A stretch of DNA of 64,000 nucleotides from Candidatus Nomurabacteria bacterium (GCA_003155695.1 PMDZ01000006.1:20007-84006), one strand, 5' to 3'; shown: positions 3,583 through 40,798, counted from the stretch's first letter. Notes: generated from the sequence alone by a model not told the origin. Made by a program: numbers and translations.

Positions 3583-3616
3583 TTACGAATTACGAATTAA
3601 TAATTACGAATTCAGG
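3581..3616. repeat. AT-rich microsatellite, TTACGAA(T) x3, directly after the cutA stop
   Basis: The sequence aattacgaattacgaattaataattacgaattcagg read directly. Confidence 0.5.
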
Positions 3617-3625
3617 ATTAAAATT

Positions 3626-10285: not shown

Positions 10286-10290
10286 ATATT

Positions 10291-10908: not shown

Positions 10909-12386
10909 TTTATAAAATAGAAAAATACAATAAAGATAGTCGCGGAGTAATTCTTTTGAATGTTCTGGTGTTTTCTGCTTTAGCGATATCTCTTGTGACG
11001 TTCTTTATTACCTGGGCATCCTCCAGTGTCAAAATAGTAGAATCAACATTGCACAAAGAACAAGCTTTTCAGATTGCGGAAGCTGGGGTAGATTATTATC
11101 GCTGGCATTTGGCTCATGCTCCTAGTGATTTTAAAGACGGAACAACAAACAATGGACCTTATACCCACATTTTTTACGATAAAGATGGAGTTGCTATCGG
11201 TAGTTTTATTTTAACCATTACTCCTCCTATAATAGGCTCAACTATCGTTACAATCAAATCGGAGGGACATGTAAATAATTACCCATCAATCAAAAGAACA
11301 ATTCAAACAAAACTCGCTATTCCATCTTTTGCAAAATACGCTATTGTTGCAAACGATAATATGCGTTTTGGAGAAGGAACTGAAATTTTTGGTCCAGTTC
11401 ATTCGAACGGTGGTATCAGATTCGATGGAATAGCTCACAACATTGTGACAAGTGCCCTTTCTTCCTATGATGACCCCGATCACTCGGGTGGTTCAGAGTT
11501 TGGTGTTCATACCCACGTGAATGTCGGAGGTGGAATTAACGATTCTTTTCGCTCACAAGAGGCGCCTCCGACAAGTCCGGTTCCAACAAGGAGTGATGTC
11601 TTTCTCGCAGGACGTCAATTCCCGGTTCCGCAATCTGATTTCACCGGAATTACAAATGATCTTTCTGTAATTAAAACAAATGCTACGTCAGGGGGTAAGT
11701 ATTTGGCTCCATCAGGAGCTCTTGGCTATCATATTGTACTTAAAACAAACGATACTTATGATTTATATAAAGTAAATAATTTGGCTACTCCCTCCGACAG
11801 CGATTGTGCCAGCACTTCAAATTACGGGGACGATACCTGGGGAACATGGAGTATAGCTTCTGGCGGACAAACTCTGGTAGGGAATTACAATAATCCGGCA
11901 AATGGACTTATCTTTGTGGAAGATAATGTTTGGGTTGACGGTCAGATAAATACCGCCAGAATTACAATTGCTGCCGGAAAATTCCCGGATAATGTAGGTA
12001 CCAGAAAAAGTATATTTATTAATAACGACCTTATGTATACAAACTATAATGGGCAAGATGTAATCGGTCTAATTGCCCAAGACGACGTGACTGTCGGAAT
12101 GATAAGTGACGACAACCTTCGCATTGATGCCGCTCTCATGGCGGTTAATGGCAGAGTTGGAAGACATTATTACAGTGATCAATGTAGCCCGTATCATTTA
12201 AGAAATAGCATTACTCTTTATGGAATGATAGGCAGTAATCAACGATATGGATTTGCTTACACAGATAATACTGGTTACGATACCCGTACAATTATTTATG
12301 ATGCCAATTTGTTATACGGGCCACCGGTTTCTTTTCCTCTAACTTCCGATAAATACTCAACTATTTCGTGGGATGAGATGGAGTAA
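10905..12386 (+). CDS. Pilus-associated membrane-anchored protein (PilX-like, degenerate prepilin motif)
   Basis: The N-terminus SRGVILLNVLVFSALAISLV is hydrophobic and prepilin-like but lacks the Glu at +5. Its start overlaps the upstream pseudopilin gene by 4 nt, so it is operonic. Confidence 0.45.
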   Translation: MIYKIEKYNKDSRGVILLNVLVFSALAISLVTFFITWASSSVKIVESTLHKEQAFQIAEAGVDYYRWHLAHAPSDFKDGTTNNGPYTHIFYDKDGVAIGSFILTITPPIIGSTIVTIKSEGHVNNYPSIKRTIQTKLAIPSFAKYAIVANDNMRFGEGTEIFGPVHSNGGIRFDGIAHNIVTSALSSYDDPDHSGGSEFGVHTHVNVGGGINDSFRSQEAPPTSPVPTRSDVFLAGRQFPVPQSDFTGITNDLSVIKTNATSGGKYLAPSGALGYHIVLKTNDTYDLYKVNNLATPSDSDCASTSNYGDDTWGTWSIASGGQTLVGNYNNPANGLIFVEDNVWVDGQINTARITIAAGKFPDNVGTRKSIFINNDLMYTNYNGQDVIGLIAQDDVTVGMISDDNLRIDAALMAVNGRVGRHYYSDQCSPYHLRNSITLYGMIGSNQRYGFAYTDNTGYDTRTIIYDANLLYGPPVSFPLTSDKYSTISWDEME

Positions 12387-14904: not shown

Positions 14905-16665
14905 ATGGAAGATCAGACCAAAATATGCCAAAACTGCAAAAATAAGTTCAACATCGAACCCGATGATTTTTCTTTCTACGAGAAAATGAAAGTTCCGGCA
15001 CCAACTTTTTGCTATCTTTGCAGAGTAGAGAGACGGCTGGCATTTCGAAACGAGAGAAAATTTTTCAGAGTCAAGGATGCTTTTACAGGTCTTGATATTT
15101 TTTCTCTTTACCCACCAGAAAGCGGGAAGAAATCAGTAACCGAAGAAGAATGGCACAAGGACAACTGGAACGAACTTGATTACGGCCGTGATTATGATTT
15201 TTCCATAAATTTTTTCAAACAGCTCTACAAATTGGAAAAAGAAGTGCCGATTTTCGCCCTTCGGGTTGAAGGCATGATCAATAGCTCCTATTGTGCCAAT
15301 GCTTCATATTTGAGGAATACTTACCTTTGTTTCAATTCCAATACTTCGGAAAGCTGTATGTACGGTAATGCCGTCGATTACAGTAAAGATTGTGTAGATA
15401 ACTCCCATGTCAATCATATGGAAAGATGTTACGAATGTTTCTGGATGCAGAATTGTTATCAATGTTATTTTACGATTATGTCGGCGGAATCGAGAAATTT
15501 GTGGTTCTGTCGAAATTGCCTTGGTTGTAACGATTGTTTTGGTTGTACCAACTTACGCAAAGCCTCATATTATATATTCAATAAACAATATTCAAAAGAA
15601 GACTATTTTTCGGAAATAGAAAAAATGAAATTGGATACGATATCCGGTCTTAAAAAGGCAAGAGAAGCTGCCAGAAATTTCTGGAAAACTCAACCGACAA
15701 AATACCAGCACGGCCTGAAAAATATTAATTCAACCGGTTCGTACGTTACCAATTGCAAGAATGTTAATGACAGTTTCCTTATCAGAGAAGGGGAAAATAT
15801 GCGTTATTGCCAGTATTTGCAGGTTCCAAAAAACAAAGATTGTTATGATACCACAGCCTGGGGGGATAATATGGAAATGCATTATGAAACTTGTCTTTGC
15901 GGCGAAAATTCATACAATCTTAAATTTTCAACCGACAGTTGGCCAAACTGCAAAAATCTCGAGTATTGTATAAGTTGTTTCAGTACATCCGATTGTTTTG
16001 CTTGCGTCGGTTTGAAGAAAAAACAATATTGTATTTTCAACAAGCAATATGGAAAAGACGAATATTTTGAAATGGTGGAAAAAATAAAAAAACAGATGGA
16101 TGATATACCGTATGTCGACAAAAAGGGGAGTGTCTATAAATACGGTGAATTTTTCCCGATTGAACTTTCACCGTTCGGTTACAACAATACGACATCTTTC
16201 CAATATTTCCCGATGACGAAAGTTAAAGCCGAGGAAAACGGCTACCCATGGATTGAAGTTCCGCGTGGTAAATATAATATCACCAAAAAAGCCTTGGAAT
16301 TACCCTATTCAATTAACGATGCGGATGAAAGCATTTTGGATGATGTCATCGAATGCAACAATTGTAAAAATCCTTACAAAATTCTGGAAGACGAATTTAA
16401 TTTTTATAAAAAAGAAAAAATACCGTTGCCGGATTTATGCGATGAGTGTCGTTTCAGAAGAAGAATCGAAGACAGATTAAAGTTTCAACTCTACGATAGG
16501 TCTTGTATGTGTTCAGGAGAAAAAGATGCCACTGGAAAATACAAAAATACCGTCAAACATGTCCACGGTGACAATTCTTGCGAAGAAAAATTCAAAACCG
16601 GCTACGGTTCGGAGAGAGGAGAGATAATCTATTGTGAGAAATGTTATCAGCAGGAAGTTTATTAA
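14905..16665 (+). CDS. Cysteine-rich protein, paralog 3 of 3 (586 aa)
   Basis: N-terminus CQNCKNKFNIEPDDFSFYEKMKVPAPTFCYLCRVERRLAFRNER. C-terminus EFNFYKKEKIPLPDLCDECRFRRR...ERGEIIYCEKCYQQEVY. The internal block QMDDIPYVDKKGSVYKYGEFFPIELSPFGYNNTT is conserved with paralogs 1 and 2. Confidence 0.8.
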   Translation: MEDQTKICQNCKNKFNIEPDDFSFYEKMKVPAPTFCYLCRVERRLAFRNERKFFRVKDAFTGLDIFSLYPPESGKKSVTEEEWHKDNWNELDYGRDYDFSINFFKQLYKLEKEVPIFALRVEGMINSSYCANASYLRNTYLCFNSNTSESCMYGNAVDYSKDCVDNSHVNHMERCYECFWMQNCYQCYFTIMSAESRNLWFCRNCLGCNDCFGCTNLRKASYYIFNKQYSKEDYFSEIEKMKLDTISGLKKAREAARNFWKTQPTKYQHGLKNINSTGSYVTNCKNVNDSFLIREGENMRYCQYLQVPKNKDCYDTTAWGDNMEMHYETCLCGENSYNLKFSTDSWPNCKNLEYCISCFSTSDCFACVGLKKKQYCIFNKQYGKDEYFEMVEKIKKQMDDIPYVDKKGSVYKYGEFFPIELSPFGYNNTTSFQYFPMTKVKAEENGYPWIEVPRGKYNITKKALELPYSINDADESILDDVIECNNCKNPYKILEDEFNFYKKEKIPLPDLCDECRFRRRIEDRLKFQLYDRSCMCSGEKDATGKYKNTVKHVHGDNSCEEKFKTGYGSERGEIIYCEKCYQQEVY

Positions 16666-19242: not shown

Positions 19243-20541
19243 ATGTCGAAGAAAGAAATTGTGATAGTTTCTATCCTTTTAGCCATCGCCGGTGTGCGAT
19301 TTTTCTTTTTTACATCGGTTGCTCCTTCGTATGGTGAAGTCGTCGGCAAAGAAGTGACGTTTGAGGGGATGGTCAGTGACGACCCGGATGTCCGCATTAA
19401 AAATCAGCAACTCGATATAAAATTAAAAGATAAAGATATAAATATCTTGGTTATCGTCGATAGAAATGTAAAAGTTTCTTATGGGGATGAAGTCAGCGTT
19501 CACGGTGTGCTCCTTGAGCCGGAGAATTTTATCACCCAATCGGGCAAAGAATTTAATTATAAAAGATATCTGGCAAACCAAGATATTTATTTTATGATTA
19601 AAAATGCCGATATTGAAATTCTTTCGAGTGATAATGGTAGTAAAATCAAATTGTTACTCTATAAATTAAAAAATGCTTTTATAAAAAGTATCAATAAGGT
19701 TATCCCGATGCCGGAAAGCGATTTGGCAAATGGTCTGGTTCTTGGAATTCGGGGTGGTTTTGACCAAGACACCAAACAGGAATTTATTGAGACGGGGACG
19801 ATTCACATCATCGCACTATCGGGGTATAACGTTTCTATTGTCGCCAGTAACGTCATGAAATTTTTCAGTTTAATTTTCTCCCAAACTATCTCAATTATTT
19901 TTGGTATTATTGTTATCTTTCTATTTATAATTATGACTGGGGCAAGTACGACGGCGATTCGCGCCGGAATTATGGCGACGATTATGCTCCTCGGCCGGAT
20001 GACGGGCAGGAATTATATTGCCGGCCGTGCACTTGTGATAGCTGGGCTTTTGATGGTCGCTTATGACCCTCGAGTACTTACCGATATGTCTTTTCAATTA
20101 TCTTTTCTTGCTACAGGCGGAGTGCTTTATCTGACACCCAAAGTTCTGAATTGGTTTAAATTTCTGCCAATGCGTTTTGGTTTCAGGGAAATGATTGCAA
20201 CTACCGTTGCGGCGACAATTGCCGTTTTGCCGATACTTCTTTATCTGACGGGTATATTATCTCTCGTTTCTCTTCCGGCAAACGCATTGATACTTCTATT
20301 TATTCCTACCGTAATGTTTTTTATTTTTGTTACAGGAATTCTCGGTTTTATTTCACCAATACTTGCAATTCCATTCGGGTATATTTCTTACCTAATACTC
20401 CTATATGTTCTTTCCGTTATCCACTATCTCGGTTCACTTTCGTTTGCCAGCGTTTCTATATTATCTTTCCCACTACCGCTTGTAATTTTGATTTACGCCT
20501 TTTTGCTTTGGTGGGTGTTTAAAAAAAAAGACCATAGATGA
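19243..20541 (+). CDS. comEC: ComEC/Rec2 DNA internalisation channel, membrane portion (DUF4131 + competence domain), lacking the C-terminal MBL domain
   Basis: An N-terminal OB-like DUF4131 region, the competence-domain motif IIALSGYNVSIVAS, and about 8 TM helices. A metallo-beta-lactamase domain is encoded separately at 21401..22267. Confidence 0.75.
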   Translation: MSKKEIVIVSILLAIAGVRFFFFTSVAPSYGEVVGKEVTFEGMVSDDPDVRIKNQQLDIKLKDKDINILVIVDRNVKVSYGDEVSVHGVLLEPENFITQSGKEFNYKRYLANQDIYFMIKNADIEILSSDNGSKIKLLLYKLKNAFIKSINKVIPMPESDLANGLVLGIRGGFDQDTKQEFIETGTIHIIALSGYNVSIVASNVMKFFSLIFSQTISIIFGIIVIFLFIIMTGASTTAIRAGIMATIMLLGRMTGRNYIAGRALVIAGLLMVAYDPRVLTDMSFQLSFLATGGVLYLTPKVLNWFKFLPMRFGFREMIATTVAATIAVLPILLYLTGILSLVSLPANALILLFIPTVMFFIFVTGILGFISPILAIPFGYISYLILLYVLSVIHYLGSLSFASVSILSFPLPLVILIYAFLLWWVFKKKDHR

Positions 20542-20555
20542 TACGGTCGTCCATA

Positions 20556-20650
20556 AAATAGCTCCTCTCAGAGGGTACGAAAATTTTTTACTAAAAATTT
20601 TCTCAGTTTTCGCTCCGTCGAGCTCAAAAGCCCCTCTGGTAGGACTATTT
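20556..20650 (+). repeat. Copy A of the ~92-bp structured interspersed repeat (subfamily 1)
   Basis: atagctcctctcagagggtacgaaaattttttactaaaaattttctcagttttcgctccgtcgagctcaaaagcccctctggtaggactat. It is homologous to 42392..42486 and, in reverse orientation, to 43737.., 44941.. and 47766.. Confidence 0.8.
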
Positions 20651-20755
20651 CATTTCCTCCCTTATAAGTGAAGCAGGATTATTGAAATTATGAGTCGCGT
20701 CGGAGCCCTTTAGGGTAAAGCGCGAATAATTTTAATAATCCTGTGGAACGGCTAC

Positions 20756-21349
20756 TTAAATTACTTTCTTGTAATTTTCTTCCACAGTCATCCAATTTAA
20801 ATTTGCGAAAAAAGCTTCGACATATTTCTTTTTTTCGCTCGTCGGATAATCATAAACGTAGGCATGTTCCCACATATCAAGACAAAGTAGCGGTGAGAGC
20901 CCAGTCAGTTGCCCCAAGTGATGCTCGTCTACCCATGAGATAATCAGTTTGTCACTAATTTTATCGAAATAGAGAATTGTCCAGCCAATTCCGCGAGTTG
21001 CGGCGACGAATTTAAAATGACTCAAGAAATTCTCAAACGTTCCCCATTCTTTTTCTATTTTTTTATATAATTCTCCTTTCGTATTGATTTCTTTTTTCCC
21101 GCCGGATAGATGGGCAAAATAATATTCATGATTTCGCATCCCATCGAACTCGAATCCAAGACGACGTTGTAATTCTCCCAAGATGTAGGCATTTTTTTCC
21201 GGGTCACTCCTGAGCTCACTTATTTTATTAAAAATAAGATTCGTGTTTTTCACGTACCCGGCGTAAAGTTTCAAATGCTCCTCGATATTTTTTTCCGATA
21301 TTCCCGCAAGCTTGGGAATATCAAATTTTTTTGCAGTAAATGTTTCCAT
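20756..21349 (-). CDS. Fe/Mn superoxide dismutase
   Basis: The C-terminal metal-ligand motif DMWEHAYVYDY and HHLGQLTG. The gene sits on the opposite strand between the two ComEC parts. Confidence 0.85.
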   Translation of the reverse strand: METFTAKKFDIPKLAGISEKNIEEHLKLYAGYVKNTNLIFNKISELRSDPEKNAYILGELQRRLGFEFDGMRNHEYYFAHLSGGKKEINTKGELYKKIEKEWGTFENFLSHFKFVAATRGIGWTILYFDKISDKLIISWVDEHHLGQLTGLSPLLCLDMWEHAYVYDYPTSEKKKYVEAFFANLNWMTVEENYKKVI

Positions 21350-21400
21350 ATTTTTAAATTTGCTTCAATTAATAATTAGTTATAATGTACGAAGTATAAC

Positions 21401-22267
21401 ATGGAAAGATTAAGAAAATATGAACAATATATACCCCTTATTTTCCTCATCATTTTCGCCATTATCATATGGTTTTTCGCTTTTCTATATAACAATCATC
21501 ATAATTATTTGGAAGTTGTCTTTTTGGATGTCGGTCAAGGAGATTCCATTTACATAGAAGCGCCGAACGGCAAACAAATGCTTGTTGATGGCGGGCCCGA
21601 CGCGAAACTTCTTTCAAGTTTGGCCAAAGTTATGCCTTTCGCCGACCGCTCTATCGATATGGTCGTGGAGACTCATCCGGATACGGACCACATCGGAGGA
21701 TTGCCACAACTGCTCGACAATTATAAGGTCACAAATATTTTGGAAAATGGAGCGACTTCAGACTCCAAAACATTTTCTGCTTTGGAAGAAAAAATTTCCG
21801 AGGACAAAATAAATAAAATTATTGCTCGTCGCGGAATGCGCATTGTTTTGGATGCGGAGAAAAATATTTATTTTGATATTTTATTCCCCGATCGCGATGT
21901 CTCAAATCTTGATTCAAACGACGGCTCGATAGTCGGGAAGCTAGTCTATGGGAATAGTTCCTTTATGTTGACAGGTGATGCAACTCTTTATACGGAAAAT
22001 CAAATTGAATGGAACGAGAACGAGGACACACTAAAATCCGATGTCCTCAAATTGGGGCATCATGGTTCGCGAACATCGTCGAGTATCTTATGGCTAGAAA
22101 AAGTTAATCCAAAAGTTGCTATCGTTTCTGCTGGAAAAGATAACAAATATGGTCATCCTCACCAGGAAACACTCGACAGGCTTTCGTCATTATATATTCC
22201 ATTTTTAAGTACGGCTGAAATAGGAAATATAATTTTCAAAAGTGATGGAACAAAACTAGTTTATTAA
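21401..22267 (+). CDS. Membrane-anchored metallo-beta-lactamase-fold protein (ComEC C-terminal-type MBL domain encoded as a separate gene)
   Basis: An N-terminal TM helix, then VVFLDVGQGDSIYIE...HPDTDHIGG...LKLGHHGSRTSSS, the ComEC-type lactamase_B motifs. Confidence 0.7.
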   Translation: MERLRKYEQYIPLIFLIIFAIIIWFFAFLYNNHHNYLEVVFLDVGQGDSIYIEAPNGKQMLVDGGPDAKLLSSLAKVMPFADRSIDMVVETHPDTDHIGGLPQLLDNYKVTNILENGATSDSKTFSALEEKISEDKINKIIARRGMRIVLDAEKNIYFDILFPDRDVSNLDSNDGSIVGKLVYGNSSFMLTGDATLYTENQIEWNENEDTLKSDVLKLGHHGSRTSSSILWLEKVNPKVAIVSAGKDNKYGHPHQETLDRLSSLYIPFLSTAEIGNIIFKSDGTKLVY

Positions 22268-23449: not shown

Positions 23450-26400
23450 TTGTATATTATGAGAAAATTAAAGTTCCTAAAACTCCATTGGGCAAAACTT
23501 CTTTCGGTATTCTTTTTAATATTACTTCTCGGAGCTTATGCCCATATTTTCGCTATTGACCGAAAATATAATCCGGGAGAAATATTGAACCCGGATTGTT
23601 TTCCGGGAGAAACAAATTGCACGGTTGATATTACAACTGGAAGTTCACAGTGGACGACAAATGGGTCTAGTATTTATTACAACACAGGGAATGTTGGAGT
23701 AGGGGTGATTGCACCGACAGCACAATTACAATTTAAAGCTGGAACTACTACTGCTGGAACTGCTCCGCTTAAATTCACTGTCGGAACAAATTTAACTAAT
23801 GCCGAAGCCGGAGCGATGGAATGGAATGGAACAAATCTTTTTATAACCCAAACATCAGGTCCAACTAGAAAAACAATTGCTTATACCACGGATATTTCAG
23901 ATAGTTCACCTATCACTATTGTTGATAGTACCAATCTTGTTTCGACCGGACTTCAGGCAGCTGGACCCGTTCCCTATGGAACACAAGATGCGATTATCAT
24001 TGGTCGCTGGGCAGGATTCAATATGATTTCCGGTTATAATTCAATTTTTTTAGGCCTTGAAGCTGGTGCTCAAGCCAATGCCGAGTCCTCTAATTTTATA
24101 GGACATGGCGCTGGTAGTGGTACTACATCTCAATATTCAAACTTTTTGGGTCATTTTGCTGGTGAAAATTCTACCTCAGCTAACTATTCAAATTTTATTG
24201 GTAGTGATGCTGGAGCGTCTACTTCCGCTACTTTTTCAAATTTCATCGGTTTTGTTGCTGGCCGCGATGCAACTTCCGCTTCCTATTCAAACTTTTTTGG
24301 GTCTAGCGCTGGTTCTTCTGCTGCTAATGCCAGCAATTCAAATTTTTTTGGTGCAGGCGCTGGAGCGAACGCCACTAATGCATCTTATTCAAATTTAATC
24401 GGTTTCAGAGCCGGACTATCTCCCATTAGTATTAATAACAGTATCGGTGCCAATAATATAATTATCGGGACAAACATTTCATTACCAACCGCAACAGCTA
24501 ATTCGATGAACTTGGGTGGTGTTTTGTTTGCCACCGGAACTTATGCAACTACAACAGGTAATCCATCAACCACAGCCGTTGCGACGGGTAAAGTTGGAGT
24601 CGGAGTTGTTTCGCCATCGGCAAGATTGCAACTTGCTGCCGGAACCGCTTCCGCCGGTACTGCTCCACTTAAATTAACTGCCGGGACAAACTTGGGAACA
24701 ACCGAAGCTGGAGCGATTGAATACGACGGTTCCCATTTATATTTTTCGGCCACAAATAATGGAGACAGATATCAACTGGACCAACAAGCAGATGGAATAG
24801 TAAGTTCCCCATGGTTAGCAAATGGTTCTGATATTTATTATGATGGTGGCAATGTCGGCATTGGAAATGATTCACCGACATCAAAACTTGACATCAAACT
24901 TGATTTGACAGTATCTTATAATCAAAGTTTTTCCGGTAGTGGATTAAATGATGCCATATATTCAGGAACATATTCTGGATCAAATCCTCCAAACGCTGTA
25001 ATTGTTCAAATAGATGGCGAAGGCACACCTGATACTTTCACATATTACGATAACCATTCAGATTGTTCTTATCCTAATGGATTTTCAATTCCAATTACCG
25101 GCTCGGCGCAATTAGTTTGCGATGGTATTTCTATTACATTTACAAATATAACTGGGCATCACAGTGGAGATACTTGGACATATGAAATTAACAGTCCGGA
25201 TTCTAATCCGATTATTAAAATAAGTGATAACACGGGCAATAATTACTTTACTGTTAATGCGGTTGCCGATAAATCAAATTTCCTAGGTACTAATGCTGGT
25301 AATGGTGCTGTCTCTGCTCATGATTCAAACTTCATCGGTACATCTGCTGGTAATGGTGCTGTCTCTGCTCATGATTCAAACTTCATCGGTACATCTGCTG
25401 GTTATGGTGCAACCTCAGCTTCCGGCTCAAACTTCTTAGGCCTAAATGCCGGTATTTATGCTACTGGTGCCCATAACTCAAACTTCTTAGGTCCTAGTGC
25501 TGGTAATGGTGCCACCTCTGCCATCTTTTCGAACTTTATAGGTACTGTTGCTGGTCTTAGTGCCACCTCCTCTTCCTATTCAAATTTTATAGGTAATGGT
25601 GCTGGATATCAAGCCACTTCTGCTTCTTACTCAAACTTCTTAGGGATAAATGCAGGTAATGGTGCTACCTCTGCTATCAACTCAAACTTCTTAGGTCCTT
25701 GGGCTGGTTCTGGTGCTATCAATGTTTCTTATTCAAATTTATTTGGCTATGAGACGGGGATGTCTTTTACTGGCAACAACATTGGCTCCAACAACATAAT
25801 CCTCGGAACAAGTATTTCTCTACCTAATGCGGCAACCAATGCTATTAATTTAGGAGGAGTCATATTTGCAACAGGGACACATTCTGACACAAATGGCATA
25901 TCTATCATTGCTGAAGCTACTGGCAAAGTTGGTATCGGAGTCGTCTCACCGTCAGCTCGCTTACAACTTGCTGCCGGAACCGCTTCCGCCGGTACTGCCC
26001 CACTTAAATTAACTGCCGGTACAAATCTTTCGACAACCGAAGCCGGAGCGATTGAATACGACGGTTCCCATTTATATTTTTCGGCCACAAATTCCGGAAG
26101 CCGTTACCAACTCGACCAGCAAGGTGGAACTCCTTCTCCTATTACTATTGTTAACACCTCAAATCTTTTTTCAACAGGAATTAGTGCTGGAACTGGGGTA
26201 ACTTCTACAACTGATTCAAACTTTTTTGGTACTGATGCAGGTGATTCTGCTACTGGTGCTTTTGGTTCAAACTTTTTTGGTCCATCTGCTGGAATTTCAG
26301 CCCCGGATGCTTTTTACTCAAACTTTTTTGGTTTACAAGCTGGGGCAGGGGCTAATGATGCCAGCAATTCAAATTTTTTAGGTCATAATGCTGGTGCTAG

Positions 26401-27781
26401 TGCCATCAATGCCGCATTATCAAACTTCTTAGGACAATCCGCAGGTTTAGGAGCTGTAGGAGCTTCTGAGTCAAACTTCATAGGTGATTCTGCCGGATAT
26501 CAAGCCACCTCTGCTCATGATTCAAACTTCTTAGGAAATGCTGCTGGTCAAGGTGCTTCCCTTGCCTCTTACTCAAATTTATTTGGTTACCAATCGGGAA
26601 GGTCTTTCCCTGTAGATACTCCCACTAACAATATCGGTTCCAACAACATAATCATCGGAACAAATATTTCTTTACCTAATGCGACTGCAAATACCATGAA
26701 CTTAGGTGGAGTTCTTTTTGCCACAGGAACATATGCAACGACGACTGGCGACCCATCTATCACCGCAGTCTCAGGTGGCAAAGTCGGTATCGGCGTCGTT
26801 TCGCCATCATATACTCTCCAAGTCGGAAACTCATCTATCTCCGGAGTAGTCGCCCGATTTGAAAATAGTGTCGGAACTTGTGACATCAATCCTACTACCT
26901 CATCGGTTGGTTGTTCTTCCGACATAAGATTAAAGAAAAATATAACTACCCTCGATAATACAGAATTTGCTCTCTCAACTGTCCCTGATATGACAGGTAA
27001 ATCAACATTGGAAAAAGTTCTGAATCTCACTCCGGTCACATACAACTGGAATAGTGAAAGTGATACCGACCAGAAACACATTGGGTTCATCGCCCAAGAA
27101 ATGGAACAAATATTCCCTGATTTGGTCAGCACCGACCCGGTAACAGGTCTTAAGTCTCTTAGTTACGCAAACATGACGCCATACCTAGCCAAAGCCATAC
27201 AGGAGATGGATTTAAAAATTACAGATATTAATAATCAGGAATTAGAAAATAGTTGGAGGGATAGCATACTTGCTTGGTTTAAAAATACCTCAAATGGAAT
27301 TACTGAATTTGTCTCAAGTATTCTTCGAGCCAAAGATAAACTTTGTATCGGAGAGGGAAGTGACGAAGTTTGTATAACAAAGGAAGACTTATTGCAAATG
27401 AAAAATAATGCCGGACTAAACGCCGGAACAGCTGCCGTGCTTCCGACTGTTGATAACTCCGGCTCATCCGGGACAGATAATTCAACTGCTGGGACATCGG
27501 ATACTTCGGGAACAGGAGCATCCAATACCGGAACAACGACCGACACCACCGGTACGACAGGGGGGAACGACGGTAACAATACCGATACAACCGGAGGAAA
27601 CACAAATAACACAACCACAGATACATCCACCACAAATACTCCCGATACTGGAACGACGAATATAAATGCTGGTAATGATACGACCGGTAATGCAAGTGGT
27701 GATACGACAAATACGGATACAACCAACACTAATAACAATAATAGTGGAACGGATAATCAAAATAATGACCTCGGTAATTAA
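23450..27781 (+). CDS. Giant (1443 aa) secreted repetitive surface protein with a C-terminal phage-tail-fibre-type intramolecular chaperone (Peptidase_S74-like) domain and a T/N/G/D-rich tail
   Basis: A signal peptide, then three modules each starting with GKVG(V/I)GVVSPSARLQLAAGTASAGTAPLKLTAGTNL..TEAGAIEYDGSHLYFSATN. Each module is followed by 10-15 tandem 17-aa repeats (SNFIG..AG.GA.SA..). Near the C-terminus is CSSDIRLKKNITTLDN...LNLTPVTYNWN...HIGFIAQEMEQIFPDLV...LSYANMTPYLAKAIQEMDLKI, the S74 chaperone signature. Confidence 0.75.
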   Translation: MYIMRKLKFLKLHWAKLLSVFFLILLLGAYAHIFAIDRKYNPGEILNPDCFPGETNCTVDITTGSSQWTTNGSSIYYNTGNVGVGVIAPTAQLQFKAGTTTAGTAPLKFTVGTNLTNAEAGAMEWNGTNLFITQTSGPTRKTIAYTTDISDSSPITIVDSTNLVSTGLQAAGPVPYGTQDAIIIGRWAGFNMISGYNSIFLGLEAGAQANAESSNFIGHGAGSGTTSQYSNFLGHFAGENSTSANYSNFIGSDAGASTSATFSNFIGFVAGRDATSASYSNFFGSSAGSSAANASNSNFFGAGAGANATNASYSNLIGFRAGLSPISINNSIGANNIIIGTNISLPTATANSMNLGGVLFATGTYATTTGNPSTTAVATGKVGVGVVSPSARLQLAAGTASAGTAPLKLTAGTNLGTTEAGAIEYDGSHLYFSATNNGDRYQLDQQADGIVSSPWLANGSDIYYDGGNVGIGNDSPTSKLDIKLDLTVSYNQSFSGSGLNDAIYSGTYSGSNPPNAVIVQIDGEGTPDTFTYYDNHSDCSYPNGFSIPITGSAQLVCDGISITFTNITGHHSGDTWTYEINSPDSNPIIKISDNTGNNYFTVNAVADKSNFLGTNAGNGAVSAHDSNFIGTSAGNGAVSAHDSNFIGTSAGYGATSASGSNFLGLNAGIYATGAHNSNFLGPSAGNGATSAIFSNFIGTVAGLSATSSSYSNFIGNGAGYQATSASYSNFLGINAGNGATSAINSNFLGPWAGSGAINVSYSNLFGYETGMSFTGNNIGSNNIILGTSISLPNAATNAINLGGVIFATGTHSDTNGISIIAEATGKVGIGVVSPSARLQLAAGTASAGTAPLKLTAGTNLSTTEAGAIEYDGSHLYFSATNSGSRYQLDQQGGTPSPITIVNTSNLFSTGISAGTGVTSTTDSNFFGTDAGDSATGAFGSNFFGPSAGISAPDAFYSNFFGLQAGAGANDASNSNFLGHNAGASAINAALSNFLGQSAGLGAVGASESNFIGDSAGYQATSAHDSNFLGNAAGQGASLASYSNLFGYQSGRSFPVDTPTNNIGSNNIIIGTNISLPNATANTMNLGGVLFATGTYATTTGDPSITAVSGGKVGIGVVSPSYTLQVGNSSISGVVARFENSVGTCDINPTTSSVGCSSDIRLKKNITTLDNTEFALSTVPDMTGKSTLEKVLNLTPVTYNWNSESDTDQKHIGFIAQEMEQIFPDLVSTDPVTGLKSLSYANMTPYLAKAIQEMDLKITDINNQELENSWRDSILAWFKNTSNGITEFVSSILRAKDKLCIGEGSDEVCITKEDLLQMKNNAGLNAGTAAVLPTVDNSGSSGTDNSTAGTSDTSGTGASNTGTTTDTTGTTGGNDGNNTDTTGGNTNNTTTDTSTTNTPDTGTTNINAGNDTTGNASGDTTNTDTTNTNNNNSGTDNQNNDLGN
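25295..25396 (+). repeat. Perfect 51-nt tandem duplication (2 units) inside the giant surface-protein gene
   Basis: gctggtaatggtgctgtctctgctcatgattcaaacttcatcggtacatct occurs twice back to back, encoding AGNGAVSAHDSNFIGTS x2. Diverged copies flank it. Confidence 0.9.
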
Positions 27782-30700
27782 AATATTTTTCAAATATATA
27801 CTCCTCATTATTTTAATTGGCGGAGCTTTTGGGGTTTTTGCCTCGACTACCAACGGAACGATAGATGCGGGCAATCACACGGCGCTTCTTTGCATGAATG
27901 ATATTTGTTCCGTCACCACCAGAATAAATTTTTTGACGACCAACGGCAGAGCTGTACATGTCACAAATAGTGCGTTAACCGGTGAAATATGGTCGGAACA
28001 GGTAGGTTGGATAAATTTAAATCCGACAAATAGCGGGGTAGCCAATACAACGAGAGGTATTCTTTCCGGCGATGCTTGGGGAGAAAATGCTGGTTGGATA
28101 AATTTTGATCCCTATAATGGTGGAGTAGTCATAAATAATAGGGGTGAATTTGTCGGCTTTGCTTGGAGTCAAAATTACGGATGGATTAAATTTGATTGTA
28201 CTGTTGCGAATGCTTGTGTCAAAACTGATTGGCGCCCGAGTAATGATGGGGGTGGTGGAGGAGGGCCACCAGTGGTGGATATATGCCCAAATATTGCCGG
28301 GAATCAAACATTAATACCGGATGGTCTTGTTATCAATGCTCTTGGGCAATGTGTTTCCCCAGAACAATGTAATGTCCTAGATGGTGCACTTAAGCAACCA
28401 CTTGATGTCATGATTATAATTGACAAATCAGGCAGTATGGCTGGCACCAAACTGTCTCAAGCCAAAACCGCCGCTACAGCCTTCATCAATAATCTGGTTC
28501 TCGGTTCTGACCGGGTCGGATACGTCTCATATTCTACGACGGCAACACTCGAAAATGGGCTGACAACATCTTTTGATACAATTAAAGCAAAGATAGCAAG
28601 TACTGTATCAAATGGAAATACGAATATCGGAGGAGCGGCAAGAATTGCTTATCAAGAAATGTTGATCAATGGTCGGGCGGGAGTTAAGCATGTCATCATT
28701 ATTCTGACCGATGGACAAGCAAATGTCTCGGATGTTAGAACTCTGACCCCAAATCAATACGCGATCAATCAATCGGACCTGGCCAAACTCCGAGGCATGA
28801 TTGTTTATTCTATCGGACTGGGGACAGATGTAGATTCCGATCTTCTTTCTTCTATGGCAACCTTGCCAAGTTATTTTTATAATTCTCCGACTGGTAGCGA
28901 CCTTTCAAATATTTATCTGCAAATTGCCGCTATTGAATGTACCGCTGCCCCTTCAAAGGTTTTCGATACGGTTATTTATGATGCAAATAGAAATGGATTA
29001 TATGATACCAATGAAAGGGGATTAGCTGGATCTATTATCTCCTTAACAAGTAGTGATGGCAGTCAACAAACAAGAACGATGACAACGCTTGCCGACGGGA
29101 GTTTCCTTTTTGATGCTGTAACACCAGGGAACTATTCAGTCTGCAATACATCACCTTCGGGGATGTATCAAACCAAACCAGTTTCAAATGGATGTTTTGA
29201 TATAAGTGTTGTTCAAGGTATTAATGTCACAGATCTCAAATTTTTAGTTACTGGTAACCAACCATTTTGTTCGCTTAATCCAAATGACCCATCATGTGAT
29301 GTTTGCCCAAACATTTCAGGTATCCAAAGTACAATTCCGAATGGATTTACCATTAACTCAAGTGGTAATTGCGTTCCAACCCCAACATTCTGCGAACAAA
29401 ATCCCACCGACCCATCATGTAATCCAACATTCTGCGAAAACAATCCCAATGACCCATCATGTGATGTTTGCCCAAATATTTCAGGTACCCAAAGTACAAT
29501 TCCGGATGGATATACCTTGAACTCAAGTGGTAATTGTGTTCCGGCTCTAACATTTTGTGAACAAAATCCCACCGACCCATCTTGTATAACTCCAACGTTC
29601 TGTTCACTTCACCCGAGTGACTCAACATGTGTAGAGCCAAGTTTCTGTACACTTCATCCCACAGACCCATCTTGTATAACTCCAACATTCTGCACACTTC
29701 ACCCTAACGATCCGTCATGCACAACCCCATCATTTTGTGCTCTACATCCCACCGACCCATCTTGTATAACTCCGGCATATTGTGCTCTTCACCCGACTGA
29801 CCCATCATGTTCAACGCCGGAGATATTTTGTGCACTTCATCCGACCGACCCATCGTGCATTAATCCGACATTTTGTTCTCTCCATCCGACGAATATATTA
29901 TGTGTAATTAAAGATACAACATCCGGTATTTTAGAAACAATAAATGGAAATCTTAATAATACTATTACCGATGTAGCCAAAAATGTTGCCGAGGCAACTG
30001 AAATTATCTTTACAAATCCAGTCGGGAAAGTTGTCACTAAAATAGTTGAAACAACCGGAGCTGTCACTGGTGCAATCGGCATTGCCGGCTTAGTTTTCTC
30101 CGGACCAATTGCTCTGGCTGATGCTTTTCTAATTCCAATTCGGTTGTGGAGTCTTCTTCTTGCTCTGTTTGGAATCAAAAAAAGGAAAACTCCATGGGGT
30201 ACAGTTTATGACAGTGTCACAAAGCAGCCCCTTGACCCGGCATATGTCGTTTTACAGAATTTAGATGGCAAAGAAGTTGCGACTTCGATTACCGACCTTG
30301 ATGGTAGATATGGTTTTCTTGTTCCACCTGGAGCGTATAGAATTATCGCCAGAAAAACAAATTATGAATTCCCTTCAAAGAAATTACTTGATAGACAGAA
30401 AGATGAATTATATGATGATTTGTATTTCAATGAAATCATAGAGGTTAAAGAAGGGGGAATCATAACCCGTAATATCCCAATGGATCCGATTAAGTTTGAT
30501 TGGAATGAATTTGCCAAGCGCGATCGCAAATTAATGAAGTTCTACTCGAGACGCAGTCTTTGGGTTGCTCTTATTTCGGATATTCTGTTTTTCCTTGGTC
30601 TAATCATCTCTACAATTGCGACAATTATTACGCCAGTTACATACAATATCATCGTTCTCGTTGTTTATCTAGTTTTACTCATATTAAGAGGGACGATATT

Positions 30701-30968
30701 AAAACCTAGAATTTATGGTCTTGTAAATCAAAAAGAAAACAAAGATCCATTGTCTTTTGCTATCATGAGAATTTTCTTTGCCGGAAGTGACCATGAAATA
30801 GCACACAAAGTCACAGACCAAACAGGTAGGTATTATTGTCTTGTTCCAAACGGCAGGTACTATACAAAGATTGAGGTAAAAAACCCTGATGAAAGTTATA
30901 GTTTAGTTCATATATCAGATCCAATTGAAGTTAAAAAGGGGTATATAAACAAGAAATTTGAGGTGTAA
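27765..30968 (+). CDS. Large multi-domain surface protein (putative adhesin): tryptophan-rich GWI(N/K)F triple repeat, vWA domain, SdrD-B/Cna-B-like domain, a roughly 10-unit CxLHPTDPSC repeat array, a carboxypeptidase-regulatory-like domain and TM segments
   Basis: The start is taken at MTSVIKIFFKYILLIILIGGAFGVFA (27765) rather than the upstream ORF start 27666. The vWA MIDAS motif is DVMIIIDKSGSM...ILTDGQAN. The SdrD-B-like motif is DANRNGLYDTNERGLAGSI. The Cys repeat is TPTFCTLHPNDPSCTTPSFCALHPTDPSC... Confidence 0.7.
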   Translation: MTSVIKIFFKYILLIILIGGAFGVFASTTNGTIDAGNHTALLCMNDICSVTTRINFLTTNGRAVHVTNSALTGEIWSEQVGWINLNPTNSGVANTTRGILSGDAWGENAGWINFDPYNGGVVINNRGEFVGFAWSQNYGWIKFDCTVANACVKTDWRPSNDGGGGGGPPVVDICPNIAGNQTLIPDGLVINALGQCVSPEQCNVLDGALKQPLDVMIIIDKSGSMAGTKLSQAKTAATAFINNLVLGSDRVGYVSYSTTATLENGLTTSFDTIKAKIASTVSNGNTNIGGAARIAYQEMLINGRAGVKHVIIILTDGQANVSDVRTLTPNQYAINQSDLAKLRGMIVYSIGLGTDVDSDLLSSMATLPSYFYNSPTGSDLSNIYLQIAAIECTAAPSKVFDTVIYDANRNGLYDTNERGLAGSIISLTSSDGSQQTRTMTTLADGSFLFDAVTPGNYSVCNTSPSGMYQTKPVSNGCFDISVVQGINVTDLKFLVTGNQPFCSLNPNDPSCDVCPNISGIQSTIPNGFTINSSGNCVPTPTFCEQNPTDPSCNPTFCENNPNDPSCDVCPNISGTQSTIPDGYTLNSSGNCVPALTFCEQNPTDPSCITPTFCSLHPSDSTCVEPSFCTLHPTDPSCITPTFCTLHPNDPSCTTPSFCALHPTDPSCITPAYCALHPTDPSCSTPEIFCALHPTDPSCINPTFCSLHPTNILCVIKDTTSGILETINGNLNNTITDVAKNVAEATEIIFTNPVGKVVTKIVETTGAVTGAIGIAGLVFSGPIALADAFLIPIRLWSLLLALFGIKKRKTPWGTVYDSVTKQPLDPAYVVLQNLDGKEVATSITDLDGRYGFLVPPGAYRIIARKTNYEFPSKKLLDRQKDELYDDLYFNEIIEVKEGGIITRNIPMDPIKFDWNEFAKRDRKLMKFYSRRSLWVALISDILFFLGLIISTIATIITPVTYNIIVLVVYLVLLILRGTILKPRIYGLVNQKENKDPLSFAIMRIFFAGSDHEIAHKVTDQTGRYYCLVPNGRYYTKIEVKNPDESYSLVHISDPIEVKKGYINKKFEV
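29570..29890 (+). repeat. DNA-level array of about 39-nt repeats encoding the C-x-LHPTDPSC-ITPTF peptide units
   Basis: Near-identical units read from the sequence, e.g. ttctgcacacttcaccctaacgatccgtcatgcacaaccccatca and ttttgtgctctacatcccaccgacccatcttgtataactccggca. Confidence 0.7.
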
Positions 30969-40003: not shown

Positions 40004-40798
40004 ATGGAAACATTATTAAACAACAAGAGAATAAGCATTTCGGTTTTTATATTATTAATAGTTTTGTCTTTGTTTGTCGTAGCTAAATTTATTAATGAGG
40101 TTAAGGGAAGTCCATATGTCGGTCGCGGGAATCAGCCGGCTAATGTGATATCTGTCGATGGAAAAGGCGATGTCACAGCCGTTTCCGATATTGCATCTTT
40201 GACTGTCAATCTAACCAAAGATGGAACGACGGCAAAAGAAGCCCAAGATTTGCTGAATACATCAATTACTAAAACGTTAAAATATCTTAAAGACCAAAAG
40301 ATTGACGATAAAGATATCAAGTCGGAATACGGAGGGTTAACTCCCAAGTATTCATATGCTCAACCTATTTGTATTACTTATCCGTGTCCGACCAAGGACC
40401 CAGTCATAATCGGTTACACCGCCACCCAGTCAATTACAATAAAAGTTCGTGTTGTCGACAATGCAAGTATTATTCGTACCGGTTTGGCCGATTTGGGAAT
40501 TACCGATATCAGTGGTCCAACCTTCACGATTGATAATCAAGATGCGTTTAATGACCAAGCTCGCGCTCTAGCTATAACCGACGCAAAAGGCAAAGCTCAA
40601 ATTTTGGCTAAAGAACTGGGAGTAACACTTGGTAAAGTTGTAAGCTTCTCGGAAAGTGGCAATAACCCATACCCAGTGATGTATGACACTAAAGCTATGC
40701 TGGGAGCCGGAACCTCAAGCAGTGCAGTTCCACCAACTCTTCCAAAAGGGGAAAACAAAATCACTTCAAACGTCTCAATTACTTACGAGATAAGATAA
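40004..40798 (+). CDS. SIMPL/DUF541 family periplasmic protein (26-kDa periplasmic immunogenic protein-like)
   Basis: An N-terminal TM/signal anchor, then the SIMPL-like fold signature (VSVDGKGDVTAVSDIASLTV...TQSITIKV...GKAQILAKELGVTLGKVVSFSE). Confidence 0.65.
   Translation: METLLNNKRISISVFILLIVLSLFVVAKFINEVKGSPYVGRGNQPANVISVDGKGDVTAVSDIASLTVNLTKDGTTAKEAQDLLNTSITKTLKYLKDQKIDDKDIKSEYGGLTPKYSYAQPICITYPCPTKDPVIIGYTATQSITIKVRVVDNASIIRTGLADLGITDISGPTFTIDNQDAFNDQARALAITDAKGKAQILAKELGVTLGKVVSFSESGNNPYPVMYDTKAMLGAGTSSSAVPPTLPKGENKITSNVSITYEIR

What the first reader, a model, noticed from the sequence alone, without database searches (positions are those of the whole stretch)
23450..27781. 1443-aa modular repeat protein with a self-cleaving tail-fibre chaperone domain at its C-terminus
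After a signal peptide there are three modules. Each starts with a roughly 65-aa conserved head (nearly identical at the nucleotide level at about 24585..24790 and 25915..26100, and also roughly 23700..23900), followed by 10-15 tandem 17-residue repeats of consensus (Y)SNF(I/L/F)G..AG.GA.SA... The C-terminus carries ...CSSDIRLKKNITTLDN...LNLTPVTYNWN...KHIGFIAQEMEQIFPDLV...SLSYANMTPYLAKAIQEMDLKI. This matches the intramolecular chaperone auto-processing (Peptidase_S74) domain of phage endosialidases and tail fibres, including the Ser-Asp cleavage context. A T/N/G/D-rich low-complexity tail follows. Such domains drive trimerisation of beta-helical fibres and are then cleaved off, so this is probably a trimeric fibre on the cell surface (or a phage-derived fibre) of an organism with few other recognisable adhesins. 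No other phage genes lie nearby.
Basis: partly seen in the sequence, partly recalled or inferred. Interest (0 to 1): 0.7.

Follow-up and report, generated by a model that had tools for sequence, protein, structure and literature searches.

The report
Phage-fibre-like surface protein of Patescibacteria
This chromosomal gene of an ultra-small (Patescibacteria/CPR) bacterium encodes an exported, repeat-built fibre ending in the self-cleaving folding domain of phage tail fibres; it belongs to a large, uncharacterised, fast-changing surface-protein family that probably mediates attachment.

Summary
ORF 23450..27781 (+) encodes 1443 aa (1440 aa from the ATG at 23459 used in public gene calls). It has an N-terminal signal sequence and three modules, each built as head, 17-residue SNFxGxxAG repeats, then cap. 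A Peptidase_S74 domain lies at aa 1157-1226 (E 3.4e-16). Ser1157, Asp1158 and Lys1162 are invariant in 54 relatives and align with the catalytic Ser/Lys of MyRF. Models give a confident ICA fold and a single-chain beta-solenoid for the repeats.

- Heads 2 and 3 are 84% identical in DNA and 94% in protein.
- The arrays hold 9, 10 and 9 units.
- Module 2 carries an extra 160-aa beta domain.
- S74 is followed by a further 181 aa, so it is not terminal.

The gene is cellular. No phage genes were found in the 64 kb window, and related genomes keep the same flanking genes. Relatives are overwhelmingly Patescibacteria, often with several paralogues per genome. They share a signal sequence with a YxPGxTLDPxCxPGxxxC motif and a lineage-specific post-S74 extension.

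Trimerisation, cleavage between S1156 and S1157, and adhesion are inferred, not shown. Verdict: a new variant of a known kind, of moderate interest.

The parts
23450..27781 (+). Whole gene: 1443 aa from TTG, or 1440 aa from the ATG at 23459 as called in public data
23450..23554 (+). N-terminal signal sequence (aa 1-35). It has a basic n-region, a ~19-aa hydrophobic stretch and an IFA|I site that fits signal peptidase I. It could instead be an uncleaved anchor.
   Evidence: Alignment of 38 family N-termini. No signal-peptide predictor was available.
23555..23629 (+). Family-wide N-terminal motif YxPGxTLDPxCxPGxxxCxV (here YNPGEILNPDCFPGETNCTV, Cys50/Cys57). Candidate cell-proximal attachment element.
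23684..23884 (+). Head 1 (aa 79-145)
23987..24439 (+). Repeat array 1: 9 units of 16-17 aa, the first two degenerate
24440..24583 (+). Cap 1 (NNIIIGTNISLP..NLGGVLFATGTY...)
   Evidence: (family D6)
24584..24784 (+). Head 2 (aa 379-445)
24785..25264 (+). Insert (aa 446-605): a second GNVGIG start plus a small beta domain with Cys539/Cys557. It recurs in some relatives, up to 3-4 partial matches per protein. Candidate ligand-binding domain.
   Evidence: pLDDT 72-93 in the core
25274..25783 (+). Repeat array 2: 10 units of 17 aa. Modelled as a beta-solenoid with one turn per unit.
25784..25918 (+). Cap 2
25919..26119 (+). Head 3 (aa 824-890): 94% aa and 84% nt identical to head 2
26159..26623 (+). 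Repeat array 3: 9 units
26624..26779 (+). Cap 3
26780..26917 (+). Pre-ICA stalk (aa 1111-1156) with the nearly invariant Cys1144/Cys1155. The predicted scissile bond S1156|S1157 lies at its end.
   Evidence: PMC8326128
26918..27235 (+). ICA / Peptidase_S74 domain (aa 1157-1262), including the long C-terminal helix. Catalytic Ser1157 is at 26918-26920 and Lys1162 at 26933-26935.
27236..27409 (+). Post-ICA extension specific to the Patescibacteria clade (aa 1263-1320): helix, Cys1299/Cys1308 hairpin, helix
27410..27778 (+). T/N/G/D-rich low-complexity tail (aa 1321-1443). Relatives have T/P/E/S/V-rich tails and no terminal hydrophobic anchor.
27765..30968 (+). Overlapping downstream gene: VWA + SdrD_B + CarboxypepD_reg surface protein with C-terminal TM helices. 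Probably the same operon. A homologue was found in 8 related loci, directly after the fibre gene in the two syntenic ones.

Best explanation
This is a chromosomal gene of a Patescibacteria (Paceibacteria/Nomurabacteria-like) bacterium. It encodes a Sec-exported surface fibre assembled like a phage tail fibre or tailspike.

Proposed steps:
1. The N-terminal signal sequence takes the chain across the membrane. It is either removed after IFA(35) or kept as an anchor.
2. Outside the cell, three chains are brought into register by the ICA (Peptidase_S74) domain at aa 1157-1262.
3. The chains then fold towards the N-terminus into three successive modules. In each module a ~67-aa head, probably an inter-chain connector, is followed by a single-chain beta-solenoid of 9-10 turns of 17 residues (SNFxGxxAGxxAxxAxx) and a cap.
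4. Once the ICA trimer is formed, the Ser1157/Lys1162 dyad cuts the bond between S1156 and S1157.
5. This separates a mature fibre of about 1120 aa from a 287-aa C-terminal fragment made of ICA, a Cys-hairpin extension and a T/N/G/D tail.

The conserved N-terminal Cys-loop motif would hold the fibre at the cell. The variable modules and the module-2 insert domain would contact the target.

The most likely role is adhesion or recognition of a partner cell or surface. The locus evolves by module replacement.

Shown here: domain content, catalytic residues, predicted folds, cellular context, family distribution and module turnover. Inferred: export, trimer formation, cleavage and adhesion.

The confidence of 0.7 is for the whole statement. 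It is about 0.9 for 'cellular, exported ICA-domain fibre of this Patescibacteria family' and about 0.5 for the adhesion role.
For: S74/ICA domain:
- Pfam hit of 59.7 bits.
- S1157, D1158 and K1162 are invariant in 54 relatives.
- The family profile hits the phage S16 gp37 intramolecular-chaperone region (6F45, E 4.8e-9) and the MyRF ICA domain (7DC3), with the Ser/Lys sites aligned.
- In MyRF, cleavage is N-terminal to S587, needs S587 and K592, and needs a trimer (PMC8326128).
- The AF2 model has pLDDT >93 over the ICA core. Its top PDB match is the MyRF ICA domain (probability 0.98-0.99), and 113 viral ICA proteins match at E<=1e-3.

Repeat arrays:
- Array 2 has pLDDT 85-98 with one strand per 17 residues.

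Export:
- The family shares a signal-like N-terminus ending in xFA or xYA.
- The protein has 8 Cys in four local pairs, several of them near-invariant.

Cellular origin:
- All neighbours are housekeeping genes.
- Loci L002 and L010 are syntenic.
- The best viral S74 match is 37-43% identical, against 45-76% in Patescibacteria genomes.

Diversification:
- Flanking proteins are 58-97% identical to their L002/L010 counterparts.
- In the fibre, only the ends (plus head copies in L002) align with the L002/L010 proteins.
- Tandem paralogues occur in other genomes.

Selection: 20 of 24 codon differences between heads 2 and 3 are synonymous.
Against: - There is no experimental or proteomic evidence for export, trimerisation or cleavage.
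- The heads and caps model poorly as monomers (pLDDT <50-66), so the quaternary arrangement is unknown.
- No known cell-wall or membrane anchor was found other than the N-terminal hydrophobic segment. No LPXTG, SLH, LysM or YadA anchor domain was hit.
- The 181 aa after the ICA domain have no counterpart in the non-Patescibacteria relatives examined, and the model does not explain them.
- No ligand-binding domain of known specificity was detected.
Confidence: 0.7

Rival explanations
1. It is a virion, tailocin or eCIS tail fibre, meaning a prophage or phage-tail-like particle component rather than a cell-surface protein.
For: - S74 domains are typical of phage fibres.
- PHROGs gives weak hits: phrog_1980 tail fibre at E 1.2e-3 and phrog_7841 at 1.6e-9.
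- The array and cap match jumbo phage PAU gp257 and a Leptolyngbya phage protein at 44-48% identity.
- Some homologues start with Mtd_N.
Against: - No capsid, terminase, portal, sheath, tube or baseplate genes occur anywhere in the 64 kb.
- The gene lies between M50/L28 and S12/S7/EF-G, at the same place in two related genomes.
- The signal-like N-terminus and the conserved Cys pairs argue for extracytoplasmic folding.
- The nearest viral S74 is only 37-43% identical.
Confidence: 0.04
2. It works as a MYRF-like release switch. The C-terminal extension and low-complexity tail hold the precursor in the wall or at the membrane. ICA cleavage then frees the N-terminal fibre as a secreted product such as matrix, toxin or decoy, instead of discarding a chaperone.
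For: - The Patescibacteria clade uniformly carries 89-278 aa after the Pfam core. This compares with 13-85 aa in the Bacteroidota, Omnitrophota and Leptospira relatives.
- The tails resemble the wall-spanning T/P/E/S-rich regions of monoderm surface proteins (resemblance from general knowledge).
- The MyRF precedent uses the ICA domain for release from a C-terminal anchor (PMC8326128).
Against: - No C-terminal hydrophobic anchor or sorting signal is present in this protein or its relatives.
- The conserved N-terminal motif suggests the N-terminus is the attached end.
Confidence: 0.12
3. It is an enzyme rather than an adhesin: a tailspike-like beta-helix polysaccharide lyase or hydrolase that digests a partner's capsule or wall.
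Against: - These matches have 4-13% identity and reflect the generic solenoid shape.
- The 17-residue turns are highly regular and Gly/Ala/Ser-rich, without the long loops or acidic clefts of such enzymes.
- No glycosidase or lyase family was hit.
Confidence: 0.07
4. It is an assembly artefact: a collapsed or chimeric repeat region from a short-read metagenome.
For: - The contig comes from a k141 short-read assembly.
- Two adjacent 51-nt units are 98% identical at 25294-25410.
Against: - The reading frame is intact over 4.3 kb.
- The exact 1440-aa protein is recorded on 5 contigs.
- The large repeated blocks are only 61-84% identical in DNA, mostly through synonymous changes, so they are easy to assemble.
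- Hundreds of homologues share the same architecture.
Confidence: 0.03

Closest known systems
C-terminal intramolecular chaperone (ICA/CIMCD, Peptidase_S74) of phage endosialidases and tail fibres: K1F endoNF, T5 pb1, S16/T4-like gp37
   Same: - Same domain, by profile and by predicted fold.
- Same SD..LK motif with the Ser-x4-Lys dyad.
- The same position at the end of a fibrous beta-structured stalk.
   Different: - The gene is cellular and the product appears to be exported.
- The domain is followed by a further ~60-aa Cys-hairpin module and a ~120-aa low-complexity tail.
- Conserved Cys pairs are present.
- No phage genes lie around it.
MYRF / MrfA ICA domain (eukaryotic membrane-bound transcription factors)
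   Same: - It is the best solved-structure match to the model (7DC3, probability 0.98-0.99).
- The aligned S587/K592 residues correspond to S1157/K1162.
- It is a non-viral use of the domain with more sequence after it.
   Different: - Topology and biology are different.
- There is no TM segment after the ICA domain here.
- The upstream part is a repeat fibre, not a DNA-binding domain.
'Tail fiber domain-containing protein' of Candidatus Paceibacterota/Nomurabacteria (automatic NCBI naming; uncharacterised)
   Same: This is the family the protein belongs to:
- 544 hits at E<=1e-5, with 34-61% local identity among the 120 listed.
- Shared signal sequence, N-terminal Cys-loop motif, SNFxG arrays, caps, S74 and post-S74 extension.
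   Different: - This member has three head+array+cap modules and one insert domain.
- Relatives mix these with other modules, and about 45% of the 120 listed hits lack S74.
- No paper on the family was found in four literature searches that bore on it.
Trimeric autotransporter adhesin heads (YadA, UspA1, CbpF) and single-chain beta-helix passengers or tailspikes
   Same: - A regular short-period beta-solenoid built from Gly/Ala/Ser/Asn-rich repeats.
- Both are trimeric surface-adhesin designs.
   Different: - The period is 17 aa, against 14-15 for YadA heads (from general knowledge).
- There is no YadA_head, YadA_stalk or YadA_anchor hit for this protein.
- Trimerisation would come from an ICA domain rather than a membrane beta-barrel anchor.

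Membership tests
Peptidase_S74 / ICA (intramolecular chaperone auto-processing) domain | Significant match to the family profile above the curated cut-off | tested here: met
   PF13884 at 59.7 bits against a cut-off of 22, E 3.4e-16, aa 1157-1226, profile positions 1-57 of 58. The family profile hits 6F45 at E 4.8e-9 and 7DC3 at E 1.3e-3.
Peptidase_S74 / ICA (intramolecular chaperone auto-processing) domain | Catalytic Ser and Lys five residues apart (endoNF S911/K916, MyRF S587/K592) | tested here: met
   S1157 and K1162 (CSSDIRLKK), together with D1158, are invariant in 54 aligned relatives. The motif aligns with HP(A)DLRAK of 7DC3 and with SSDRRIKK of 6F45. The residue equivalences come from PMC8326128.
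Peptidase_S74 / ICA (intramolecular chaperone auto-processing) domain | ICA fold: beta core around the cleavage strand plus a long C-terminal helix | tested here: met
   The AF2 model has pLDDT 93-98 over aa ~1157-1247 and a helix at aa 1239-1261. Foldseek's top PDB hits are the MyRF ICA domain (probability 0.98-0.99). In BFVD, 113 viral proteins match at E<=1e-3 and the named ones are ICA or tail-fibre proteins. TM-scores are low (0.24-0.46) because a monomer model is being compared with swapped trimers.
Peptidase_S74 / ICA (intramolecular chaperone auto-processing) domain | Homotrimerisation and actual self-cleavage | not testable with these tools
   Only monomer prediction was available, and there is no proteomics.
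Phage, tailocin or eCIS tail fibre (particle component) | Encoded within a cluster of virion or tail structural genes | tested here: not met
   Pfam or PHROGs scans of 40 further ORFs (39 of at least 100 aa plus the 81-aa L28; 15 shorter ORFs and those nested inside larger ORFs were not scanned) found only cellular functions or no hit. These functions include PilB/PilC, PGK, RecJ, ComEC, SOD, L28, M50, S12, S7, EF-G, MacB, RecA, FtsK and glycosyltransferases. The chromosomal position is conserved in L002 and L010.
Phage, tailocin or eCIS tail fibre (particle component) | Cytoplasmic assembly, with no secretion signal | tested here: not met
   A signal-like N-terminus is conserved in 38 relatives. 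Four local Cys pairs are present. No dedicated signal-peptide predictor was run.
Trimeric autotransporter adhesin (type Vc) | C-terminal YadA_anchor beta-barrel, with YadA_head/Hep_Hag and stalk repeats | tested here: not met
Patescibacteria S74 surface-fibre family (as defined here from the homologues) | Signal sequence followed by YxPGxTLDPxCxPGxxxCxV | tested here: met
   The query has YNPGEILNPDCFPGETNCTV, and the consensus comes from 38 N-termini.
Patescibacteria S74 surface-fibre family (as defined here from the homologues) | CxSD..LK ICA domain followed by a ~60-aa Cys-pair extension and a low-complexity tail, more than about 90 aa after the Pfam core | tested here: met
   The query has 217 aa after the Pfam core. 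Patescibacteria relatives with a complete S74 match have 89-278 aa, and the non-Patescibacteria relatives have 13-85 aa.

The most novel reading that the evidence does not exclude
These proteins are domesticated phage receptor-binding fibres. They serve as the main partner-recognition organ of Paceibacteria-type episymbionts. They are exported by Sec, trimerised outside the cell by the ICA domain, and held by the conserved N-terminal Cys-loop, possibly on the co-encoded VWA membrane protein. Their specificity is re-programmed by swapping head, solenoid and insert cassettes at a fixed chromosomal locus and among tandem paralogues. In this reading the clade-specific post-ICA extension is a functional part, for example a retained tip or a wall-interacting release latch as in MYRF, rather than disposable chaperone.
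Probability: 0.2. Interest if true: 0.75.

Novelty: new variant of a known kind. Interest (0 to 1): 0.45.

Why it matters
Patescibacteria have tiny genomes, and the cultured examples live attached to other cells. Beyond type IV pili, how they recognise and hold a partner is largely unknown.

This work defines a family with about 3,000 representative sequences that match the repeat array. It has several paralogues per sub-megabase genome, and its middle part is replaced between close relatives. The family re-uses the phage tail-fibre folding and cleavage device on what appears to be an exported cellular protein. That makes it a concrete candidate for a host-specificity determinant.

The family also supplies three sequence elements that matched no Pfam model in the scans done here:
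- the 17-residue SNFxG solenoid repeat;
- the N-terminal Cys-loop motif;
- the post-ICA extension.

It is a further non-viral use of the ICA domain besides MYRF.

The predicted cleavage between S1156 and S1157 is directly testable, by recombinant expression or in existing metaproteomes.

Tried and rejected
- NCBIfam gave no hit.
- A single-sequence search of PDB sequences gave nothing. Only the family profile reached 6F45 and 7DC3.
- Pfam at E<=10 on array 2, head 2, the insert, the post-S74 region and the N-terminus found no credible family.
- The exact-protein look-up failed with the TTG start and worked with the ATG start.
- The 54-sequence alignment A1 was too divergent for the search for related loci. 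A 12-sequence S74 alignment, A3, was used instead.
- Literature searches combining S74 or 'intramolecular chaperone' with Patescibacteria or CPR returned nothing. A search for the family name with Patescibacteria/CPR terms found no paper that uses that name.
- All 27 listed papers that mention Peptidase_S74 concern phages, eCIS, giant or polinton-like viruses, or unrelated topics.
- Two candidate papers, one on CPR parasitism and one on fibrillar adhesins, do not mention the domain.
- The promoter and terminator scan was uninformative in this AT-rich DNA.
- No second family member, N-motif or S74 motif exists elsewhere in the window.
- Prophage, eCIS, TAA, enzyme and mis-assembly readings were considered and rejected, as set out under the rival explanations.

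Full report
**1. What is there**

The ORF 23450..27781 (+) is open for 1443 codons from a TTG. Public gene calls use the ATG three codons downstream (23459, 1440 aa). That exact product is recorded on five contigs of 50-200 kb. One of them is ENA ERZ27256921 k141_4337598 (93.8 kb), which contains the window.

The anatomy, is as follows.

| Residues | Element |
|---|---|
| 1-35 | Basic n-region, a 19-residue hydrophobic stretch, then IFA\|I |
| 40-59 | YNPGEILNPDCFPGETNCTV |
| 79-145, 379-445, 824-890 | Three 67-aa heads |
| 180-330, 609-778, 904-1058 | Three arrays of 9, 10 and 9 units; consensus S-N-F-(I/L/F)-G-x-x-A-G-x-(G/S)-A-T-S-A-x-x |
| after each array | A ~50-aa cap (NNIIIGTNISLPNATAN.MNLGGVLFATGTY...) |
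| 446-605 | A 160-aa insert, present only in module 2 |
| 1111-1156 | Short stalk carrying Cys1144 and Cys1155 |
| 1157-1226 | Pfam S74 match |
| 1263-1320 | Helix, Cys hairpin, helix segment (Cys1299/Cys1308) |
| 1321-1443 | 123-aa tail, 78% T/N/G/D |

The eight cysteines form four local pairs.

- The periodicity is far beyond chance: 23 of 25 successive SN[FL] spacings are 16 or 17 residues.
- Heads 2 and 3 are 94% identical in protein but only 84% in DNA.
- Of the 24 codons that differ between them, 20 differ synonymously.
- The duplication is therefore old and under purifying selection. It is not an assembly echo.
- Only two adjacent 51-nt units (25294-25410, 98% identical) are at risk of collapse.

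**2. The S74/ICA domain is genuine**

- Pfam Peptidase_S74 scores 59.7 bits against a cut-off of 22, with E 3.4e-16.
- In an alignment of 54 relatives, S1157, D1158 and K1162 are invariant. Four further residues are also invariant, and Cys1144, Cys1155 and Cys1308 are nearly so.
- The family profile finds the chaperone-bearing C-terminus of phage S16 gp37 (6F45, E 4.8e-9) and the MyRF ICA domain (7DC3, E 1.3e-3).
- In those alignments the family's sSD..LKk lies on SSDRRIKK and on HP(A)DLRAK.
- According to PMC8326128, MyRF is cut between P586 and S587. S587 and K592 are indispensable and equivalent to endoNF S911 and K916, and cleavage needs the trimer.
- By this alignment the scissile bond here is S1156|S1157, and the dyad is S1157/K1162.
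- An AF2 model of aa 1058-1325 has pLDDT 93-98 over the ICA core and a long helix at aa 1239-1261.
- Its best solved-structure matches are the three chains of 7DC3, at probability 0.98-0.99.
- 113 viral predicted structures match at E<=1e-3, and the named ones are annotated as ICA or tail-fibre proteins.

**3. The repeat part**

No Pfam, NCBIfam or PDB-sequence match covers the heads, arrays, caps, insert, N-motif or post-ICA segment.

- An AF2 model of module 2 (aa 372-830) gives pLDDT 85-98 for the array, with one short strand every 17 residues. This is a single-chain beta-solenoid.
- The insert core scores 72-93 and is all-beta. The head and cap score below 50-66.
- I read the arrays as rigid spacer or binding solenoids. 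I read the poorly modelled heads as segments that need the other two chains. This second reading is an inference.
- tblastn against phage genomes shows that the array plus cap (aa 672-1102) is 44-48% identical to Sphingomonas jumbo phage PAU gp257 and to a Leptolyngbya phage protein. The S74 region matches many phage tail fibres at 26-34%.
- Both building blocks are therefore shared with phages.

**4. The gene is cellular, and the family is a Patescibacteria family**

The window encodes the following:
- PilB/PilC, PGK, RecJ and RNase H;
- a split ComEC with SOD between its two parts;
- L28 and M50 peptidase;
- the fibre gene, then a VWA/SdrD_B/CarboxypepD_reg protein;
- S12, S7, EF-G, HlyD/MacB, RecA and FtsK;
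- a polysaccharide gene cluster.

PHROGs finds no structural phage protein in the ORFs without Pfam hits.

- The word-indexed search found 544 relatives. The named ones are 'tail fiber domain-containing protein [Candidatus Paceibacterota]', on contigs of up to 840 kb.
- A scan of one genome per species found 123 S74 relatives.
- Almost all of the best ~60, at 41-76% identity, are labelled Patescibacteria (Paceibacterota, Nomurabacteria and similar); a few records carry only generic 'bacterium' labels.
- Many come as several loci per genome, and as tandem paralogues with near-identical N-termini (L011 x3, L028 x3, L032 x2, L038 x2).
- Only weaker matches, at 34-44%, come from Saprospiraceae, Chitinophagaceae, Bacteroidales, Leptospira, Omnitrophota and others.
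- The best match in IMG/VR is 37-43% identical.
- Patescibacteria members with a complete S74 match have 89-278 aa after the Pfam core. The other phyla have 13-85 aa.
- In the Patescibacteria members the extension contains a conserved ...WF.N..N.I...F.....LC......C.TK..L... segment followed by T/P/E/S/V/D-rich sequence without a terminal hydrophobic anchor.
- Thirty-eight N-termini share the signal-like segment ending in xFA or xYA and the motif YxPGxTLDPxCxPGxxxCxV.
- The array plus cap alone matches 3051 cluster representatives at E<=1e-3, and 511 at E<=1e-30.

**5. Module turnover at a fixed locus**

- L002 and L010 share the gene order ComEC-SOD-MBL-L28-M50-[fibre]-VWA-S12-S7-EF-G (L002 also RecJ-RNaseH upstream), with EF-G 88-89% and S12 95-97% identical to the window.
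- In L010 only the first ~100 aa of the fibre (56% identity) and the ICA region (49%) align. In L002 the ICA region (46%) and copies of the head align.
- The middle part is different: L002 has no SNFxG units and is at most 895 aa.
- Among the 120 listed homologues, heads, arrays, caps, inserts and S74 occur in many combinations, and 55 of them lack S74.
- A VWA homologue was found in 8 related loci, directly after the fibre gene in L002 and L010. In the window its start overlaps the fibre stop by 17 nt.

**6. Interpretation**

The best-supported reading is an exported, ICA-assembled, homotrimeric surface fibre that is cut at S1156|S1157. It would be attached through its conserved N-terminal end and would present variable solenoid and insert modules. 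The most likely function is adhesion or partner recognition by an episymbiotic bacterium.

- Domain identity, catalytic residues, predicted folds, context, distribution and turnover are shown here.
- Export, trimerisation, cleavage, orientation and adhesion are inferred.
- Rival readings are a particle-borne fibre, a MYRF-like release device, a depolymerase and a mis-assembly. They are weighed in their own section, and none is favoured.
- The unexplained element is the clade-specific ~180 aa after the ICA domain.

**7. Novelty**

- The ICA/S74 domain and its presence in non-phage bacterial proteins are known, and NCBI already auto-names relatives.
- I found no paper on this family in the searchable library. 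This is absence within one library only.
- The exported context, the N-terminal Cys-loop, the 17-residue solenoid repeat, the post-ICA extension and the cassette-like evolution in Patescibacteria make it a new variant of a known kind.
- It is of moderate interest generally, and of higher interest for CPR biology.

Noticed in passing
window 27765-30968 (+): The overlapping downstream gene encodes a 1067-aa protein with VWA, SdrD_B and CarboxypepD_reg domains. It carries Cys-rich 15-aa repeats P(T/S)FC.LHP.DPSC (45-nt period, 29545-29887) and repeated DVCPNISG.QS.IP.G units, and it ends in TM helices. Homologues were found in 8 related loci, directly after the fibre gene in the two syntenic ones, so it may be a functional partner.
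   Followed up: partly
window 19243-22267: ComEC is split into a Competence/DUF4131 gene (19243-20541) and a separate metallo-beta-lactamase gene (21401-22267). An Fe/Mn superoxide dismutase lies on the opposite strand between them. All three genes recur together in L002, L010, L037 and L047.
   Followed up: partly
L002 6419-9104 and L010 4211-8795, compared with window 23450-27781: The fibre gene keeps the same chromosomal position in two genomes whose EF-G is 88-89% identical to the window's. Only the ends of the fibre (in L002 the ICA region and head copies) align, which indicates cassette-like replacement of the central ~1000 aa.
   Followed up: yes
L011, L028, L032, L038: Two or three S74-fibre paralogues lie in tandem, with near-identical signal sequences and N-terminal motifs but different middle parts. 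Some genome bins hold 4-8 loci (JAZKAB01, JBDSNU01, JBBSBF01).
   Followed up: partly
window aa 672-1102 of the fibre (25463-26755): The SNFxG array plus cap is 44-48% identical to Sphingomonas jumbo phage PAU gp257 and to a Leptolyngbya phage Lbo-JY46 protein. Two homologues (P0064, P0066) begin with the Mtd_N domain of the Bordetella phage tropism determinant. This hints at exchange with phage fibres and perhaps at diversity-generating retroelement targets.
   Followed up: partly
window 51886-53904 and 58738-60012 (+): Two Wzy_C (O-antigen ligase or PglL-like) membrane proteins lie inside a glycosyltransferase, epimerase and flippase cluster. They could O-glycosylate surface proteins such as the Thr-rich tail of the fibre. 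This is pure speculation.
   Followed up: no
window 1298-5332, 8471-12386 and 14905-16665 (+): Five large ORFs (493-604 aa) lie around the PilB/PilC genes. One has a CarboxypepD_reg domain and the others have no Pfam or PHROGs hit. They may be pilus-associated or further surface proteins.
   Followed up: no
window 25294-25410: Two consecutive 51-nt units are 98% identical (SNFIGTSAGNGAVSAHD twice). This is the only spot where short-read assembly could have miscounted units.
   Followed up: partly
window 40004-40798 (+): A 264-aa ORF matches phrog_36144, of unknown function, at E 1e-25. It is isolated, with no other phage-like genes around it.
   Followed up: no
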